In this document: positions 41,414 through 61,891 of the stretch, one piece after another | How positions within the stretch are numbered: the stretch's first letter is position 1 | How the letters are laid out: each line of letters begins with the position of its first letter | Assembly (NCBI GenBank): GCA_965226795.1 | Contig: CBDDDZ010000004.1 | Location: 736,001 to 800,000 of the forward strand | Origin: Candidatus Latescibacterota bacterium | Lineage (GTDB): Bacteria > Latescibacterota > UBA2968 > GCA-2709665 | DNA: 64,000 bases | Direction: 5' to 3' | Made by a program: the position numbers and the translations under genes | The notes under the pieces: generated by a model | The model's database searches: none | The model's input: only the letters and a program-made list of their open reading frames with translations | Told to the model about the DNA's origin: nothing

Positions 41414-43003
41414 ATGGCAAGGAAGGTCCTTATGCATAGAGTCAATCGTCGTTCCGCTGTATTATTAAGTTCCATCTGGCTCCTGACGCTCGCCTTTCCC
41501 GTCCTGGCCTTTGCGGAGGGAACGGCCCAGATGGAAACCGAAACGTTAAACAGTTGGATACAGACCAATCTTGCCGACCTGGACAGCCTCTTCGGAAACA
41601 CGGTCGAACTCATGGGGACGGTCCTCTTCGCGTCGTTCGGCACGGGAATTCCGCTCATCGTGATGATCCTTCTTCTGGGAGGTATCTATTATTCCTTTTT
41701 CTTCAGATGGTTATCCATAAAGGGGTTCCGCCACTCCATAGACATCATCCGCGGCCGCTTCGATAATCCCGATGATCCCGGAGAAATCTCACATTTCCAG
41801 GCCCTCACCAGTGCACTCTCGGCCACGGTCGGGCTCGGAAACATCGCAGGCGTGGCCATCGCCGTGAGCCTTGGCGGCCCCGGCGCGATTTTCTGGATGC
41901 TCGTCACCGCGGTCTTCGGCATGTCCTCCAAACTCGCCTCCTGCACCCTGGCCATCATGTACAGGCAGATACACCCCGACGGACATGTCTCAGGCGGCCC
42001 GATGTATTACCTGGAAAACGGCCTTAAATTAAAGGGCATGGGGCAATTCGGCCGCACCCTGGCCGTGATGTTCGCCTTTCTGACCGTGGGCGGAAGCCTC
42101 GGCGGCGGCAACATGTTTCAGGCCAATCAGACGCTGGAAATACTGGGTACCGTTTCGCCGGTCTTCAAGACCTACAACTGGTTGGTCGGCATCCTGCTCG
42201 CGGGTATGGTCGCCGTCGTGATTGTCGGCGGCATCCGGCGAATCGGCCGCGTCACGTCCCGGGTGGTGCCCACTATGTGCGTGTTATACGTGGCCACCTG
42301 CCTTCTGATTATCCTTACCAACTTTACCCGGATTCCGGAATTGCTGGTCACCATCTTAAGCCAGGCCTTTTCGCCGCAGGCGCTCTATGGCGGCTTCGTG
42401 GGTGTGATGGTAACCGGCATCAAACGCGCCGCCTTCTCGAACGAGGCCGGCCTCGGATCCGCTGCGTTCGCGCACGCCGCCGCCAAAACTAACGAACCCG
42501 CCCGGGAGGGCATGGTGGCCATGATCGGACCCTTTATTGACACTGTCGTCATCTGCCTGATGACGGGCCTTATCTGTCTGATCACGGGCGTCTACGCGGA
42601 CCCTCAATTCCTCGGTCAGGCCCAGCAGGGCCATCCGGTGGGCGCGGCCATGACGGCCGCGGCTTTCGAATCCTTCATTCCCGGCGCCCGCTATGTACTC
42701 GCAATCGCCGTGGTGCTCTTTGCCTATTCCACCATGATTTCCTGGTCCTATTACGGCGAACGCGCCTGGGAGTATCTTTTCGGAGATGGCACGATCCTCG
42801 CGTACCGCATCATCTTCGTCGTTTTTGTTTTCTTCGGCGCCGTTACCGCCCTGGACAACGTGCTCAGCTTCACGGACATGATGATCCTTGGAATGGCATT
42901 CCCCAACATCATCGGCGGCGTGATCCTGAGCCCACAGATCAAGGCCGCCCTCTACGATTACTGGGACCGGCTGAAATCCGGACGGATGACCATGTACAAG
43001 TAA
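41414..43003 (+). CDS. Alanine/glycine:cation symporter (AgcS family)
   Basis: ATVGLGNIAGVA, GGPGAIFWM, GGPMYY, FSNEAGLGSA and FAYSTMISWSYYG motifs. Confidence 0.95.
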   Translation: MARKVLMHRVNRRSAVLLSSIWLLTLAFPVLAFAEGTAQMETETLNSWIQTNLADLDSLFGNTVELMGTVLFASFGTGIPLIVMILLLGGIYYSFFFRWLSIKGFRHSIDIIRGRFDNPDDPGEISHFQALTSALSATVGLGNIAGVAIAVSLGGPGAIFWMLVTAVFGMSSKLASCTLAIMYRQIHPDGHVSGGPMYYLENGLKLKGMGQFGRTLAVMFAFLTVGGSLGGGNMFQANQTLEILGTVSPVFKTYNWLVGILLAGMVAVVIVGGIRRIGRVTSRVVPTMCVLYVATCLLIILTNFTRIPELLVTILSQAFSPQALYGGFVGVMVTGIKRAAFSNEAGLGSAAFAHAAAKTNEPAREGMVAMIGPFIDTVVICLMTGLICLITGVYADPQFLGQAQQGHPVGAAMTAAAFESFIPGARYVLAIAVVLFAYSTMISWSYYGERAWEYLFGDGTILAYRIIFVVFVFFGAVTALDNVLSFTDMMILGMAFPNIIGGVILSPQIKAALYDYWDRLKSGRMTMYK

Positions 43004-43020
43004 CCGCAAACACCCGCAAT

Positions 43021-43059
43021 AAAGGGGCGCTGCAATATCGCAGCGCCCCTCTTTTATTT
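43021..43059 (+). terminator. Intrinsic terminator
   Basis: AGGGGCGCTGC...GCAGCGCCCCT hairpin followed by a T tract. Confidence 0.85.
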
Positions 43060-43158
43060 AAGGGCATCACCTTTTTGCGAGTAACAACACCGGGATCTCG
43101 CGTTTCGCTACCTGCGAAATAGAATCTCCTCCACCCCCATAACGTCCCCTATTCCCTT

Positions 43159-43375
43159 GCCCTTTTTCTTTCTCGCCAAAGAAAAAGGGCCAAAAAGAAC
43201 GGCGCCGCTCGGCGCGGGGCCGGTTTTTCCACGAATCCCCTCAGTGGCATAGACGGGTGACTGTGCCCTGCGTACAAATCCGACCCCGCGATGCTTCTAT
43301 GCAGGACGGAATAACGTGGAAAAACCCCCCGCTCCTCCACCGGAAGGTCGTGAGGTAGACCTGGAAGGACGGCCG
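43159..43375 (+). repeat. Structured intergenic repeat, copy A
   Basis: Homologous to 60155-60375 and, inverted, to 43566-43723. Confidence 0.75.
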
Positions 43376-43435
43376 CCTGGATTTGCATTCGAACGGCCGA
43401 TCGCCGTATGATTGCGCAGCGCGTTCGTTGTATTC

Positions 43436-43459
43436 CTAGGGGCGACTCATGAGTCGCCC
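43436..43459. repeat. GTAG-class REP-like palindrome (CTAG variant)
   Basis: CTAG-GGGCGACTCATGAGTCGCCC. Confidence 0.65.
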
Positions 43460-43565
43460 GCATGGTGGTCCGCATATCGCCGATAGATTTCGCCAAGCCA
43501 TATCGCTCGCTCTCAGATAGCCATTCGGTTATCGAACGCGACGTCTCCCGCGAGCACTCCCAGAG

Positions 43566-43723
43566 CAGAGCGCGCTATTCCGTTCCCCAGCGAACTCCGA
43601 TATCCACCTTCGCTTGCAGGGCAGTGCATTACGTGCGTCCCCTGAGGGTATTCGCGCTGTGCATTTGACAGGCCCCGCGCCCAGCGGCGACTTTTGGTTC
43701 CTTTTGGTCGCTTCAAAAGGAAC
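43566..43723 (-). repeat. Structured intergenic repeat, copy C (inverted and more divergent)
   Basis: The reverse complement shows hairpin-CCAAAAG-CGCCGCT-GGCGCGGGGCC...CGCGAAT...TGCCCTGC...ACGGAATAGCGCG. Confidence 0.65.
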
Positions 43724-43856
43724 ACGCCGTAGGCAGGGAATTTGGAGAAAGGTGGTTCTTGAATTTGGTTTTGATCCTTCATTGTCCTTCCCCGCCGGAG
43801 GCGTGGAGCCGGGGGGAGAGGTCCCGCCTTAAGCTGAAAGCTGATAGCTAATTCCG

Positions 43857-44831
43857 CTAAACTTCCGCAACGGATACCGGTTCGCCCGTCTCGAGCGAAC
43901 GGTTCACCGCCACAACCACCTGCTGGGTTTTCACGGCATCCGAGTACGGACATCGCAGCTTCGATCCATCACCGGTGCGCACCGCCTCAATAAACGCGTT
44001 ATCCATTTCCTGCCAGTAGTCGTTGCCGACCTCGATATACTCGGACCGATCCCCCTGCACAACTGTAATGGACTTTCTCTCCTTGTACTCAATCACCATA
44101 TCCTTCGTGTAGATATCCAGCCCGCCGCGATGCCCACACGATAGGAAACAGGCCGAAAAAATCGTCGCCAGCGTTCCGTTCTCGAAAATCAACGTGGCCG
44201 CGCTCGCGTCTTCAATATCGTAATCCTCCACATCCGCCATCAATCCAGTACGGCCCCCGGCATATACCGTTTTCACGTCGCCGAAAAGATACCTGGCCAT
44301 ATCCGTCACGTGAACCGTCTGCTCAACGGCCTGCCCCCCTGACATCTGCTTCCGCCGCCACCAGTACGTGCCAGGCAGCCCGCCCATCCAATACCCGATG
44401 GCCAGCCCGACCTGGCGGCTCGCAAGCAGGTCCTGCGTTTTTTCAATAATATCCAGGTACCGACCCTGGAAGCCCACGCAGGAAATTACACCGTGTTCCC
44501 GAATGGCCGCGTCGGCCTCCCGCGCCGTATCCATGTGAAGGGCGATCGGCTTCTCCACAAACAGCGCGATCCCCTTCTCCGCGGCCAGGATCTCCTGTGC
44601 TTCGTGCGCAAAGGGAGGGATGCAGATATATACCGCATCCAACTCCACCTCGTCCAACATGGACCTGTAGTCCGTGAATACCCTGGCATCCCACTCCGCC
44701 GCCGCCGCGGCGGCCTTCGCCCGGTCCACGTCGCAAATGGCCACCATCGCCACGTCGTCGATGCGCTTCAGATGCCGGCGATGCGCACGTGAGATATTCC
44801 CCGCACCTATAAGACCAACTTTTACCGTCAT
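43857..44831 (-). CDS. Gfo/Idh/MocA-family oxidoreductase
   Basis: GLIGAGNI, FVEKP and SGG...EQTVH..D motifs. Confidence 0.92.
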   Translation of the reverse strand: MTVKVGLIGAGNISRAHRRHLKRIDDVAMVAICDVDRAKAAAAAAEWDARVFTDYRSMLDEVELDAVYICIPPFAHEAQEILAAEKGIALFVEKPIALHMDTAREADAAIREHGVISCVGFQGRYLDIIEKTQDLLASRQVGLAIGYWMGGLPGTYWWRRKQMSGGQAVEQTVHVTDMARYLFGDVKTVYAGGRTGLMADVEDYDIEDASAATLIFENGTLATIFSACFLSCGHRGGLDIYTKDMVIEYKERKSITVVQGDRSEYIEVGNDYWQEMDNAFIEAVRTGDGSKLRCPYSDAVKTQQVVVAVNRSLETGEPVSVAEV

Positions 44832-58847: not shown

Positions 58848-59945
58848 CTATTTTCCCGCGGACACATTGAGGTCTTTTAACAAATCGAGGTACTGGCCGT
58901 ACCCGGCGGTCTTCAATTCGTTCATGGGAATAAACCTCAGCGAAGCCGAATTGATACAATACCGCAGACCGGTGGGGGGAGGCCCGTCGGGGAACACATG
59001 GCCGAGGTGGGAGTCCCCGAACTTGCTCCGAATCTCGGTACGGGTCGTGAAGAGGCTGCTGTCGACGTGCTTCACGATGTGTTCCCGGACCATCGGCTGG
59101 GTGAAGCTCGGCCATCCGGTACCCGACCGGTATTTGTGCGTTGAACTGAAAAGCGGTTCGCCCGAGACGATATCCACGTAGATTCCCGGCTTCTTGTTAT
59201 CCCAGTACTCGTTGCGGAACGGCCGCTCGGTGCCGTCTTCCTGGGTCACGTTCCACTGCAGCGGCGTCAGCTTCCGGCGCAACGCCGACGCGGGGGGTTT
59301 TACCCAGGTCCCTTCGGAGGATTTAGCGGGCTTGTCCCGGCCCCAGACCCCCTCGATAAACCGGTCGCGACCCGAGCCCTTCCGGTAGCGGTTGTATTGG
59401 GCCGGCTTTTTCTTGTAGTAATCCTGGTGGTATTTCTCAGCCGGGTAAAACGTTTGCGCAGGGCGGATGGGCGTGACGATGGGAGCGTTGAAGCGACCCG
59501 ACTCGCCCAGCGCTTTTTTTGAAGCTTCGGCCAGCTGCTTCTGCTTCTCGTCGTGGCAGAAAATGGCCGACGTGTACTGGTGGCCCCGGTCGTAGAACGA
59601 CCCGCCGGCATCGGTGGGGTCGAACTGCCGCCAGAAAACGTCGAGCAATTCAGCGTAGGTGACGACGGAGGGGTCGTATGTGACAAGCACCGACTCGATG
59701 TGCCGGGTGCTGCCTGAACTGACCTGGCTGTAGGTCGGATTCAGGCGTTCCCCGCCGGTATAGCCGGATACCGCGGAGACGACCCCCTCGAGTTTATCGA
59801 AGGGAGCTTCGATGCACCAGAAGCAGCCGCCGGCGAACGTGGCCTGTTCCACGTTTTTGGTTTCGGACCGGCTGTCCCGCGCGCCGAAGGCCAGGGCGAC
59901 AATCAGCGTGGCAGCGGTCAACAACAGCACAAGTGGCGTTTTCAT
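58848..59945 (-). CDS. msrAB: Exported bifunctional methionine sulfoxide reductase MsrA-MsrB
   Basis: Signal peptide, [25 protein letters not shown] and RYCINS. AGGAGG RBS. Confidence 0.95.
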
Positions 59946-60154
59946 TTGGTATCCTCCTGAGATTCCCGGCAATCGGGCTGGATGTTGCACGTTGGATCAA
60001 ATCGACTAAAAAATAGCAAATTTGGGGTGCCGATGGTATCCCTAAACCTGAAAATGGCGAAGATTAAGCGATCATGGTCCCATCGGTCGGCATTCTGGAA
60101 CTGCGTTCCGGGCGGACACAGGCTCTTCCGCTCCATTCATTTTTTTTCCTCTTC

Positions 60155-60375
60155 GTCCTTTTTCTTGTTCGCGCAAGAAAAAGGACCAAAAAGAACCGCG
60201 CCGCTCAAACGCCGCGGGGCTGCTTTTCCGCGAACTGCTCCGGCAACGGAGACCAGGGTTTGCGCCCTGCGAAGTCTTCAGCACTTCTCAAGCGACGTTG
60301 ATGAACGGAATTACGCGGAAAAGCCCCCTCCCGATCGGACCGGGCGCACGAGAGGTTCACCGGATAGGACTGCTG
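60155..60375 (+). repeat. Structured intergenic repeat, copy B
   Basis: Colinear with 43159-43375, with compensatory stem changes. Confidence 0.75.
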
Positions 60376-60586
60376 TATGTCTTGGGCTGTTGCTGCACGA
60401 AAGACGGGCGGTTCCCGAACCGCCCCTGCCAAAACCAGACATCCGGGCATTGATATCGCCACGCCGTATCGCATTCCCCTTTTTGCTTTCTGTTTTAAGC
60501 TGACTGCTGATTCCTATTCACTGCCTTTTCCTTTGTGTCGTCGTGTCTCAGTGTGAGCTGATGTTTCGTCGACACTTTTTTCAGAC

Positions 60587-60615
60587 TTGATATATGAACA
60601 TTTGTTCAGTATATT
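60587..60615 (+). promoter_or_regulatory. Sigma70 promoter with a LexA-like box in the spacer
   Basis: TTGATA-N17-TATATT, with GAAC-ATTT-GTTC at 60596-60607. Confidence 0.75.
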
Positions 60616-60621
60616 CAGGAT

Positions 60622-61419
60622 ATGGCCCACTCCCATCTCGAAATCGAAGAGACCGGGGCGCGTTCGGTCCTGATGCCACAGGACGGTCCTCCGGTCACCC
60701 GATACACCCTAAATCCGTATGTCGGATGCGGAATGGGGTGCGCCTATTGCTACGTAATGAAATACCACTACGCCGTGGAACACCCTTTGCCGTGGGGCGC
60801 ATGGGTCCAGCCCAAAATGAACGCGCCGTTTCTTCTGGGCAAGGCCCGCGACAAAATCTGGGGGAGGCGGATTTTCGTGGGTTCCGCCACCGACCCGTAC
60901 CAATACGTGGAACGGCAGTACCGGCTGACCCGCCGCTGCCTGGGCGTCCTGCTGGACAGCAACCCGAAAGACGTTGTGGTGCACACGCGCAGCCACCTGG
61001 TTCTGGACGACGTGGAACTGCTGCGGACGTTCAAGAACCCCCTGCGCGTGTGTTTTTCCGTGCCCACCGACGACGACCGCGTACGGCGAAAGCTGGAGCC
61101 GCACGCCCCTCGCATCGACGCCAGGCTGAAGACCATGCGGCGCCTCAGGTCCGCCGGCATTCACGTTACCGCGGCGGTGGCGCCTCTTCTACACTGTGAG
61201 CCGGCCCGCTTTACCGGGCTGCTGAAAGACGCCGCTGACGACGTTTACACCGGGACAATGCGCTACACCGACAAAACGGGCCTGCAGTGGAAGGACCGGG
61301 CGCAGGCCTATTTCCGGAGCGCCCGTTACACGAACCTGGCCGCCGAGATGGACCGCTGCCTCGACGCTGCGGGTCTGAAGACAAACCGGGACGACGAAAG
61401 AGATTTCGCGTCACGATGA
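60622..61419 (+). CDS. Radical SAM protein, SplB/spore photoproduct lyase-like
   Basis: LNPYVGCGMGCAYCY (CxxxCxxC), GSATDPYQ..E..Y.LTR and TRS motifs. Confidence 0.88.
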   Translation: MAHSHLEIEETGARSVLMPQDGPPVTRYTLNPYVGCGMGCAYCYVMKYHYAVEHPLPWGAWVQPKMNAPFLLGKARDKIWGRRIFVGSATDPYQYVERQYRLTRRCLGVLLDSNPKDVVVHTRSHLVLDDVELLRTFKNPLRVCFSVPTDDDRVRRKLEPHAPRIDARLKTMRRLRSAGIHVTAAVAPLLHCEPARFTGLLKDAADDVYTGTMRYTDKTGLQWKDRAQAYFRSARYTNLAAEMDRCLDAAGLKTNRDDERDFASR

Positions 61420-61468
61420 ATGCTGCATGGCCACGCCGACGGAAGATCACCAGAACGACCATGACATC

Positions 61469-61493
61469 GTAGGGGCAACCCTTGTGGTTGCCC
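61469..61493. repeat. GTAG-class REP palindrome
   Basis: GTAG-GGGCAACC-CTTGT-GGTTGCCC. Confidence 0.7.
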
Positions 61494-61891
61494 GCGTTTC
61501 CAGGGTGGTAACACGGTGCCACAAATTTTCTTGTGGTGCCATAAGAATTCTTATGGTCATTACTGTGGCCCGGAGGTTCCAAAATGCATTCGAAAAGTCA
61601 CAGTCGAACTGCCGAGAATGCTCCGCGAGTCGCGTAATCCGGGTCGTCTTGCCAGCGTGTGTCGCCCAGGTTGTGACCTGAATGAGGCGACGGGCCTAAG
61701 GCAAACGGCGCGGCAGTTCCGTGGCATTTGGACGCAAATTCAACGAATTACTCAACGCAATGAGTAAAAATACTCATTGTATTGAGCAAATTGTCGTGAT
61801 GCTTTCGGTGCGCCACGTACACCTGATGGACCGGATTGAAGGTTGTCGAACGTCCTGACGGTGTTTGCGAAGGTGGTCGCAGCCATTATCT

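What the first reader, a model, noticed from the sequence alone, without database searches (positions are those of the whole stretch)
43159..43375. Structured ~160-220 nt element in three copies with compensatory mutations
Seen: copies A (43159-43375 +), B (60155-60375 +) and C (43566-43723 -) share the order hairpin, CCAAAA(A)G, CGCCGCT, CGCGGGGC, CGAA, TG.GCCCTGC-like, ACGGAAT. The first stem covaries (GCCCTTTTTCTTT/AAAGAAAAAGGGC; GTCCTTTTTCTTG/CAAGAAAAAGGAC; GTTCCTTTTG/CAAAAGGAAC). A long-range stem also covaries (TTTTCCACG/CGTGGAAAA; TTTTCCGCG/CGCGGAAAA; AGCGCG/CGCGCT). Conserved pairing despite sequence drift implies selection on an RNA or ssDNA fold. I recognise no Rfam family. Inference: an undescribed ncRNA class or a non-autonomous mobile element. 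This is the best novelty candidate in the window.
Basis: partly seen in the sequence, partly recalled or inferred. Interest (0 to 1): 0.78.

Follow-up and report, generated by a model that had tools for sequence, protein, structure and literature searches.

The report
Triplex-headed mobile repeat with fixed loop
The three look-alike stretches are copies of a non-coding repeat found at about 85 places in this bacterial genome and present or absent at matching places in close relatives; its head is predicted to fold into a three-stranded DNA helix, it carries a loop of free sequence but fixed length, and it likely spreads as a passenger element moved by an enzyme not yet found.

Summary
It is a dispersed repeat at 85 loci of the genome. 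A and C form one inverted pair, as do 27 of the 85 loci. It occurs across one order of Latescibacterota-type genomes, and 28 of 43 syntenic sites filled in relatives are empty here.

Anatomy: hairpin plus pseudoknot plus a mirror purine tract (intrastrand-triplex geometry, covarying between genera), a small hairpin, and a long stem closing an 80-84-nt loop that is unstructured, non-coding and about 40-48% identical between copies in its two variable halves.

No Rfam match, gene-orientation bias, fixed G-U pairs, guide target or linked mobilising enzyme was found; transcription is not shown. Best reading: a non-autonomous, single-stranded-DNA-folding repeat, an A/T-rich relative in kind of BoxC/PIT triplex repeats, living in BIME-like mosaics and swapping modules by recombination. 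The same head starts unrelated repeats in other phyla.

The scan found this family before on other genomes (e1-9704051, e1-6769798, e1-3065524); the triplex reading, strand clue and module swaps were tested here.

The parts
43121..43158 (+). Copy A leader (one of at least three degenerate leader types that precede the head)
   Evidence: Shared with other copies
43159..43204 (+). Copy A head: 13-bp hairpin 43159-43190 (pyrimidine arm, purine arm), mirror purine tract 43192-43199 (predicted third strand), 4-bp pseudoknot 43174-43177 with 43201-43204
   Evidence: Sequence; pairing and covariation; fold predicted, not measured
43205..43217 (+). Copy A small hairpin (4 bp, 5-nt loop); two of four pairs covary
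   Evidence: helix 3
43222..43326 (+). Copy A long stem (43222-43233 with 43315-43326) closing an 81-nt loop (43234-43314) with three conserved islands, the central one at 43264-43271, and two variable halves
43327..43375 (+). Copy A degenerate tail
43436..43458 (.). Separate REP-like palindrome between A and C; a stretch of about 50 bp covering it is missing at the orthologous site in G008
   Evidence: (L017)
43540..43756 (-). Copy C (C subtype), inverted partner of A: 10-bp head hairpin 43697-43723, mirror tract 43691-43696, pseudoknot 43687-43691 with 43707-43711, 6-bp stem 43569-43574 with 43653-43658 closing a 78-nt loop
43726..43734 (+). 3-bp minihairpin with a GNA-type three-base loop at the outer end of C; present in 30 of 30 C copies
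43785..43850 (.). Unrelated small repeats of the same mosaic (partial G/C-rich triplex-type repeat; short tandem heptamer-like repeat)
60097..60154 (+). Copy B leader (second leader type)
60155..60200 (+). Copy B head: hairpin 60155-60186, mirror tract 60188-60195, pseudoknot 60170-60173 with 60197-60200. The site just after it is the empty allele of a 33-bp nested insert that is present in a 99% identical duplicate of this region (G000:C4:924954)
60201..60375 (+). Copy B small hairpin (long-loop variant), long stem 60222-60232 with 60314-60324, 81-nt loop, tail; a solo A-type copy
41414..43003 (+). Flanking gene: sodium:alanine symporter family (not part of the element)
   Evidence: Pfam PF01235
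43857..44831 (-). Flanking gene: Gfo/Idh/MocA oxidoreductase (not part of the element)
   Evidence: Pfam PF01408
58848..59990 (-). Flanking gene: fused MsrA/MsrB (not part of the element)
   Evidence: Pfam PF01625 and PF01641
60622..61419 (+). Flanking gene: radical SAM protein (not part of the element)
   Evidence: Pfam PF04055

Best explanation
It is a non-coding repeat that is gained, lost and reshuffled between genes, and it likely works as folded single-stranded DNA whose predicted triplex-pseudoknot head would be recognised by a DNA-cutting enzyme encoded elsewhere. Shown: many copies, presence/absence at orthologous sites, compensated stems, a mirror tract that stays in register with the hairpin's purine arm, a fixed loop length, and module exchange between copies. 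Inferred: (1) the fold forms on DNA exposed at replication forks, probably on the strand that carries the GNA minihairpins, where the third strand is pyrimidine; (2) a trans-acting single-strand nuclease or HUH transposase copies it into intergenic repeat clusters, singly or as inverted A-C pairs, by analogy with RAYT/REP and with the DUF559 genes that are flanked by G/C-rich triplex repeats in the same lineage; (3) recombination between conserved blocks swaps heads, loops and loop halves; (4) the loop is a spacer whose length, not sequence, matters to the protein-DNA complex.
For: Copy number and pairing: 85 loci, 53 solo A, 27 convergent A-C, 5 solo C. Mobility: window site has no A/C hit in 11 of 14 same-genus genomes and different copies in two; 28 of 43 syntenic sites empty. 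Triplex geometry: first-G register equal in purine arm and mirror tract in 112 of 123 distinct heads (partly fixed by my search patterns); the register shifts together between genera, A5-G in g1/g2, A4-G in g3/g7, all-A in g6/g10. DNA rather than RNA: 3 G-U cells of 1617; minihairpins reading GNA on the opposite strand 39 against 7 near 62 metagenome heads, background 720 against 788, and 30 of 30 C copies; no gene-orientation bias. Loop: 80-84 nt in 125 of 126 copies, indel/substitution 0.066 against 0.16 in leaders and tails, folding z about 0, stops in all six frames in 28-47 of 64 copies. Module swaps: 8 of 14 orthologous same-orientation copies have loops only 46-64% alike, 5 are 95-100% alike; copies 98% identical over 156-161 bp up to the loop start then diverge; same loop with another head. 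REP-like setting: other small repeats co-cluster (33, 39 and 24 of 85 loci against 1-7% of random windows); 4 of 85 loci in the 2.1 Mb around the GC-skew flip against 33 expected (region chosen after looking). Analogy: DUF559 genes in these genomes carry G/C-rich triplex-type repeats.
Against: No partner enzyme found: no mobile gene family recurs among 2390 ORFs near copies or among 50 proteins beside metagenome heads; 0 of 30 Y1-transposase loci and 1 of 20 DUF559 loci (head 1.5 kb away) carry the element; Y1 transposase is found in only 7 of 14 same-genus genomes though all 14 have the repeat. No sharp ends or target duplication could be defined. A-type copies themselves show few GNA-type minihairpins (6 against 2 in 76 copies). 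The wobble test does not pick a strand. Presence/absence could partly reflect loss and gene conversion rather than new insertion: 14 of 15 shared sites have the same orientation. The triplex and pseudoknot are predictions from sequence only. The random-window control for co-clustering was not matched for intergenic DNA.
Confidence: 0.68

Rival explanations
1. It is an RNA-level element: the minus strand is transcribed and ends in a U-A-U triple-helix pseudoknot (telomerase- or ENE-like, recalled) that protects the 3' end, and copies spread through RNA by a borrowed reverse transcriptase.
For: The pyrimidine-strand geometry fits an H-type pseudoknot with major-groove triples; PMC4666352 states that pyrimidine-type intrastrand triplexes occur in RNA. 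The genome holds reverse transcriptase genes (6 matches). Loop substitutions are only about half transitions, which could reflect error-prone copying.
Against: Almost no G-U pairs, no strand excess of wobbles, GNA triloops are a DNA feature (recalled), no gene-orientation bias, no separate RNA contig seen at A, C or B (contigs cannot show absence), no RT gene family among ORFs near copies.
Confidence: 0.14
2. The loop is a programmable guide or template held in a constant scaffold (bridge-RNA-, TIGR- or telomerase-like), and loop exchange reprogrammes it.
For: Two fixed-length, unpaired, variable halves between conserved islands; lengths kept across the order while the closing stem is replaced wholesale; loops and loop halves are exchanged as cassettes.
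Against: Loop halves match neither their own flanks (mean longest match 7.69 against 7.72 for other flanks), nor the rest of the genome beyond shuffles, nor the empty allele (6.74 against 6.84 in 25 sites), nor 50,697 phage records (copy A only). Loops form a gradual tree-like series, not captured unique spacers. No IS110 transposase domain in the genome.
Confidence: 0.1
3. It is a host-maintained chromosomal binding site (for a nucleoid, repair or replication protein) that spreads only by homologous gene conversion, with no dedicated mobilising enzyme.
For: Strong avoidance of the terminus half, same orientation at 14 of 15 shared sites, no cognate enzyme, near absence from viral contigs and none in plasmids for the queries tried.
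Against: Sites are not kept between close species (28 of 43 empty) and CM matches fall from the 18-match scoring cap in many genomes to 0-6 in genus g6 and none in 64 genomes of family f4, which fits a selfish family better than a needed site.
Confidence: 0.08

Closest known systems
BoxC / PIT / TM(ECO) intrastrand triplex repeats (Holder et al. 2015, PMC4666352; abstract, passages, sections 16 and first part of 20 read; supplement not readable)
   Same: Pyrimidine tract, purine tract, mirrored purine tract on one strand (class II geometry); intergenic; no strand or gene bias; variable between close relatives; also found as inverted pairs; no linked transposon reported.
   Different: A/T-rich, not the G/C-rich 37-nt consensus; adds a covarying pseudoknot; heads a 180-220-nt element with a further hairpin, a long stem and a fixed-length loop; two subtypes that pair up.
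REP / REPIN / BIME with RAYT; TIRtrons (PMC3116915 passages; PMC3733652 passages and section 16; PMC3184786 passages)
   Same: Intergenic folded repeats, inverted doublets, mosaics with other small repeats, turnover between relatives, large repeat-free regions (compare 'repeat deserts', PMC2718517 passages).
   Different: Unit five to ten times longer; no GTAG or CGTC tag; most loci are singlets; A and C arms are different subtypes; the genome's RAYT is flanked by another palindrome family and no Y1 locus carries the element.
Prokaryotic MITEs (PMC3184786 passages)
   Same: 100-400 bp, non-coding, multi-copy, inverted ends in A-C pairs.
   Different: No sharp ends, target duplication or cognate IS found; copies are far more divergent and mosaic.
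RNA triple-helix pseudoknots (telomerase RNA, ENE elements; recalled, no paper read)
   Same: Minus-strand reading gives a U-rich loop lying along an A-U-rich stem in an H-type pseudoknot.
   Different: Dispersed mobile copies, no G-U pairs, no transcript shown.
Mobile/repeat sequence candidates of Breaker-lab surveys (PMC11109978 passages)
   Same: Multi-copy covarying motifs with inconsistent gene orientation, possibly acting as DNA.
   Different: The one described in the text (MRSC-65-2) is a single long stem; the 250 candidates in its supplement were not checked.

Membership tests
Any Rfam 15 family | Match at the family's gathering score | tested here: not met
   0 hits in the window and in 12 loci of distant relatives; best E 0.15 in a permissive scan
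Intrastrand triplex repeats (class II, PMC4666352) | Pyrimidine, purine, mirrored purine tracts of 6-15 steps with short loops on one strand | tested here: met
   8-step mirror in A and B, 4-5 steps in C (below the 6-step minimum); exact 8-step mirror in 68 of 76 full A copies; register covaries
Intrastrand triplex repeats (class II, PMC4666352) | Intergenic, no strand or flanking-gene bias, variable between relatives | tested here: met
Intrastrand triplex repeats (class II, PMC4666352) | Triplex forms in vitro (CD, NMR) | not testable with these tools
   Needs oligonucleotide biophysics
BoxC / TM(ECO) proper | G/C-rich 37-nt consensus | tested here: not met
   The element's head is A/T-rich; the consensus matches once elsewhere in the genome
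REP / REPIN-RAYT | 20-40-bp palindrome with GTAG or CGTC tag | tested here: not met
   No fixed tag; the one GTAG-like spot at the C end takes all four bases
REP / REPIN-RAYT | Mostly inverted doublets that fold into one hairpin | tested here: inconclusive
   27 of 85 loci are inverted A-C pairs, always convergent, but 58 are singlets and the arms are different subtypes
REP / REPIN-RAYT or TIRtron | Cognate Y1 transposase gene flanked by the repeat | tested here: not met
   0 of 30 Y1 loci from the order; the genome's free-standing RAYT has other flanks
BIME-like mosaic | Clusters with other small palindromic repeats | tested here: met
   (control not matched for intergenic DNA)
MITE | Sharp ends with terminal inverted repeats and target-site duplication | tested here: inconclusive
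   8 filled/empty pairs read by eye show ragged mosaics; alleles are 80-92% alike in flanks
MITE | Ends shared with an autonomous IS | tested here: inconclusive
   No transposase family near copies; only Y1, RT, IS110 and DUF559 families were searched
Structured ncRNA / cis-regulatory RNA | Consistent orientation to genes; tolerated G-U pairs on one strand | tested here: not met
Structured ncRNA / cis-regulatory RNA | Discrete transcript | tested here: inconclusive
   Only contigs available, no strand or ends
Guide RNAs (bridge RNA, TIGR, CRISPR-like; features recalled) | Variable segments match a target | tested here: not met
   Flanks, own genome, empty allele, phage records; viromes not searched with loops
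Guide RNAs (bridge RNA, TIGR, CRISPR-like; features recalled) | Cognate effector gene beside or near the RNA | tested here: not met

The most novel reading that the evidence does not exclude
This is one branch of a pan-bacterial class of mobile elements whose recognition end is a triple-helix pseudoknot, and in this branch the measured 81-nt loop is an exchangeable cassette that guides or templates an undiscovered enzyme, so that cells carry dozens of differently programmed copies.
Probability: 0.1. Interest if true: 0.88.

Novelty: new variant of a known kind. Interest (0 to 1): 0.5.

Why it matters
Intrastrand triplex repeats have no assigned function, and in vivo folding was not shown in the main study (PMC4666352). 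Here three tracts and a pseudoknot change together between genera and between phyla, which is comparative evidence that a three-stranded fold is selected, and it gives natural variants for a direct test. The family also shows a loop under selection for length alone and a 33-bp element nested at one fixed site in 45 of 76 copies. Finding the enzyme that moves such heads would define a new mobile system; if none exists, the family is a clear case of repeat turnover by recombination alone. As it stands it is a repeat family of unknown effect on the host.

Tried and rejected
Three-copy ncRNA: rejected by copy number and turnover. Internal structure of the loop: no covarying inner pairs, folding z about 0 on both strands with RNA and DNA parameters. 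Coding loop: stops in every frame, no 3-base periodicity. Adenine-specific (DGR-like) mutagenesis: all six substitution types are common. Guide matches: none above controls. Terminator or leader role: no orientation bias. Strand by wobble count: no answer. Partner search: searches gave none. Viral contigs: 0, 1 and 6 loci for three head patterns (the 7 loci were not examined). Plasmids: no match for one distant relative's element. One search used a mis-written pattern (0 hits in the own genome) and says nothing. RNA runs: 14 RNA runs list the stretch or part of it; laid contigs cover A-C at depths like the flanking genes in runs that may hold DNA, and the unique loop of B has no listed RNA contig, which proves nothing. 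Literature: searches found no description of this family; head-like motifs were not found as a family in the supplements of PMC2267715 and PMC2718517 (two pages there are pictures). Weak CM hits in families f10-f12 were not inspected and may be heads only.

Full report
Observation. Copies A (43159-43375 +), B (60155-60375 +) and C (43566-43723 -) are present with the motifs and stems described. A and B fold better than dinucleotide shuffles (z -3.96, -2.69), C does not (z -0.21). Rfam gives nothing at gathering score in the window and nothing better than E 0.15 in a permissive scan of 43000-43900. The flanking genes are a sodium:alanine symporter and a Gfo/Idh/MocA oxidoreductase for A-C, and MsrA/B and a radical SAM gene for B. 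ORFs overlapping the copies have no Pfam family.

Copy number and layout. Profiles built from genome copies give 132 hits, 92 of A type and 40 of C type. Hits above 60 bits fall into 85 loci: 53 solo A, 27 with A and C, always convergent with the heads outermost, and 5 solo C. The window's A and C are one such pair; B is a solo A. Orientation of A copies to the two flanking genes is even, 16/22/18/19 of 75. Only 4 of 85 loci lie in the 2.1 Mb around the GC-skew flip of contig C5, against 33 expected; I chose that region after seeing the map. Other small repeats crowd the same loci: a GTAG-type REP in 33 of 85, a short tandem repeat in 39, G/C-rich triplex-type repeats in 24, against 1-7% of random windows that were not matched for intergenic DNA.

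Distribution. BLAST finds the element in 14 of 14 same-genus genomes. A covariance model built from 49 copies finds it in 56 of 150 genomes of the phylum: 17 of 17 in the own family, 25 of 30 in the sister family, 2 of 2 in f3, 0 of 64 in f4 (at most 18 candidates are scored per genome, and weak hits in f10-f12 were not inspected). Named records with the A head are mostly titled Candidatus Latescibacterota or Gemmatimonadota MAGs, and RNA holders include sponge metagenomes.

Mobility. At the window's A-C site 11 of 14 same-genus genomes have no A or C hit, G008 has the same pair, G010 has another A copy and G005 a C copy. Of 72 distinct copies in relatives, 43 had both flanks syntenic in this genome: 28 sites are empty, 14 hold an A in the same orientation, 1 holds other elements. 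Eight filled/empty pairs read by eye show ragged mosaics with no clear ends or target duplication.

Anatomy, stems. On the 49 regex-selected copies 98.6% of 1617 cells pair, 8 of 33 pairs change on both sides, in all four helices, and slid partners pair at 45-62%. The rows are kin and were picked for intact arms, so this overstates significance; the wholesale replacement of the long stem between genera is the stronger sign. Only 3 cells are G-U.

Anatomy, head. The first hairpin has a pyrimidine arm and a purine arm. It is followed by a purine tract that is the mirror image of the purine arm, and then by four bases that pair with the hairpin loop (pseudoknot; one pair flips in 16 of 49 rows). 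This is the class II intrastrand triplex layout of PMC4666352. The mirror is exact over 8 steps in 68 of 76 full A copies (36 of these were parsed with two extra arm bases and read by eye). Across 123 distinct heads the first G sits at the same step in arm and mirror tract in 103, both lack it in 9, and 11 disagree. My patterns fixed the step-5 class for loci L038-L128 and allowed only step 3 or none in the metagenome set, so the unbiased part is: G with G in 36 and A with A in 9 where both positions were free, and the joint shift between genera of this family, A5-G in g1/g2, A4-G in g3/g7, all-A in g6/g10. The same head, with its own covarying pseudoknot, starts otherwise unrelated repeats in Clostridia, Thermodesulfobacteriota and Selenomonadaceae records and in many unnamed metagenome contigs.

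Anatomy, loop. The long stem closes a loop of 80-84 nt in 125 of 126 copies found with a length range of 52-132 allowed. Its two variable halves are 48% and 40% identical between copies against 82-85% for the stems. Indels per substitution are 0.066 in loops and 0.16-0.165 in leaders and tails. The loop has no covarying inner pairs, folds like its shuffles and is closed in every reading frame in 28-47 of 64 copies. Loops form a gradual, tree-like series with about half transitions. They match neither their flanks, the rest of the genome, the empty allele at 25 sites nor phage records (copy A only).

Module exchange. Among the 14 shared sites, 5 loops are 95-100% alike, 8 are 46-64% alike and 1 could not be read. 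Alignments show the same loop with another head, the same head with another loop, and one half kept while the other changes. Three copies on C5 are about 98% identical over 156-161 bp up to the loop start and differ after it. A 33-bp palindromic insert sits at one site between pseudoknot and small hairpin in 45 of 76 copies; 46 of its 55 genome copies are inside the element, and B is the empty allele of a 99% identical duplicate that carries it.

DNA or RNA. G-T and A-C mismatches are about equally common in the stems (4 against 5, 6 against 6 distinct cases), so wobble names no strand and suggests that mismatches are decay. Three-base-loop minihairpins that read GNA on the strand opposite the head's purine mirror number 39 against 7 near 62 metagenome heads (genome background 720 against 788) and occur in 30 of 30 C copies, but only 6 against 2 in 76 A copies. 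That GNA triloops mark stable DNA hairpins is recalled; a paper search for the phrase found nothing. RNA data are contigs only: A-C is covered at depths like its neighbours in runs that may contain DNA, and B's unique loop has no listed RNA contig. Transcription is neither shown nor excluded.

Partner. None found. No mobile family recurs among 2390 ORFs near copies or 50 proteins beside metagenome heads (one integrase-domain IS has inserted next to a head). The genome has three Y1 matches, six RT matches and no IS110 domain. The free RAYT is flanked by another palindrome family; 0 of 30 Y1 loci carry the element and Y1 is found in only 7 of 14 same-genus genomes. DUF559 genes of the order are flanked by G/C-rich triplex-type repeats (relaxed consensus in 10 of 20 loci, similar hairpins by eye in most others) but not by this element (1 of 20, 1.5 kb away). 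Earlier scan notes report that pairing too (e1-5284303); it serves here only as an analogy.

Mechanism. Shown: a multi-copy, mobile or at least fast-turnover, mosaic repeat with compensated stems, triplex geometry and a length-constrained loop. Inferred (confidence 0.68): it folds as single-stranded DNA, the head is the recognition end for a trans-acting nuclease or HUH transposase, and recombination between conserved blocks reshuffles the parts. Rivals: an RNA with a 3' triple helix spread by a borrowed RT (0.14), a programmable guide or template (0.10), a host site spread by conversion only (0.08).

Comparison and novelty. It works like REP/REPIN and BoxC-type repeats but fails membership of REP-RAYT systems (no tag, no cognate RAYT) and of BoxC/TM(ECO) proper (different consensus); MITE membership is open. 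It meets the sequence definition of an intrastrand triplex repeat. I found no description of the family in the searches. Seen: PMC4666352 abstract, passages, section 16 and part of section 20, supplement unreadable; PMC3733652 passages and section 16; passages of PMC3184786, PMC2718517, PMC3110155, PMC3116915, PMC11109978; supplement term searches for PMC2267715 and PMC2718517. The ITxF catalogue, the BRE sequences and the 250 mobile/repeat candidates of PMC11109978 were not seen and may hold relatives of the head. The scan has found this family on other genomes (e1-9704051, e1-6769798, e1-3065524) and a similar head in Bacteroidota (e1-9777431). Verdict: new variant of a known kind, interest 0.5.

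Noticed in passing
G000, inside A-type copies (e.g. C4:924954 region); empty site at window 60200-60203: A 33-bp palindromic element nested at one fixed site in 45 of 76 A copies, apparently with a 3-base duplication; present/absent between near-identical duplicates and between orthologous copies.
   Followed up: partly
window 43724-43734 and all C copies: The middle base of the three-base minihairpin loop is complementary to a base two positions outside the stem in all four variants; possibly a tertiary contact, unexplained.
   Followed up: partly
L310-L329: DUF559 genes of this order are bracketed by G/C-rich triplex-type (BoxC-like) repeats, some in frame inside restriction-modification genes.
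   Followed up: partly
G000:C2:153500-155100: Free-standing RAYT gene flanked by several copies of a palindrome family that also occurs in the repeat mosaics.
   Followed up: partly
window 60595-60620: A palindromic box resembling an SOS (LexA) operator (resemblance recalled) just upstream of the radical SAM gene.
   Followed up: no
window about 59550-61130 and G000:C4:about 924000-925550: The region around copy B is duplicated at 99% identity over at least 1.5 kb elsewhere on the contig.
   Followed up: no
window 61466-61498: A short high-copy repeat with very high contig depth in the DNA run, REP-like; not examined.
   Followed up: no
downstream of many A copies (16 of 85 loci): A further conserved module that begins with a degenerate second copy of the long stem's 3' arm and contains its own hairpin.
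   Followed up: partly
G000:C3:633477-634415: Three tandem C copies with a period of 372-378 bp behind one A copy.
   Followed up: no
L330-L336: Seven viral-contig loci carry head-like patterns; not examined.
   Followed up: no
L118, L124, L127 and others: In some relatives a C head or its remnant lies inverted just upstream of an A head (10 of 238 heads), the opposite arrangement to the convergent pairs.
   Followed up: partly
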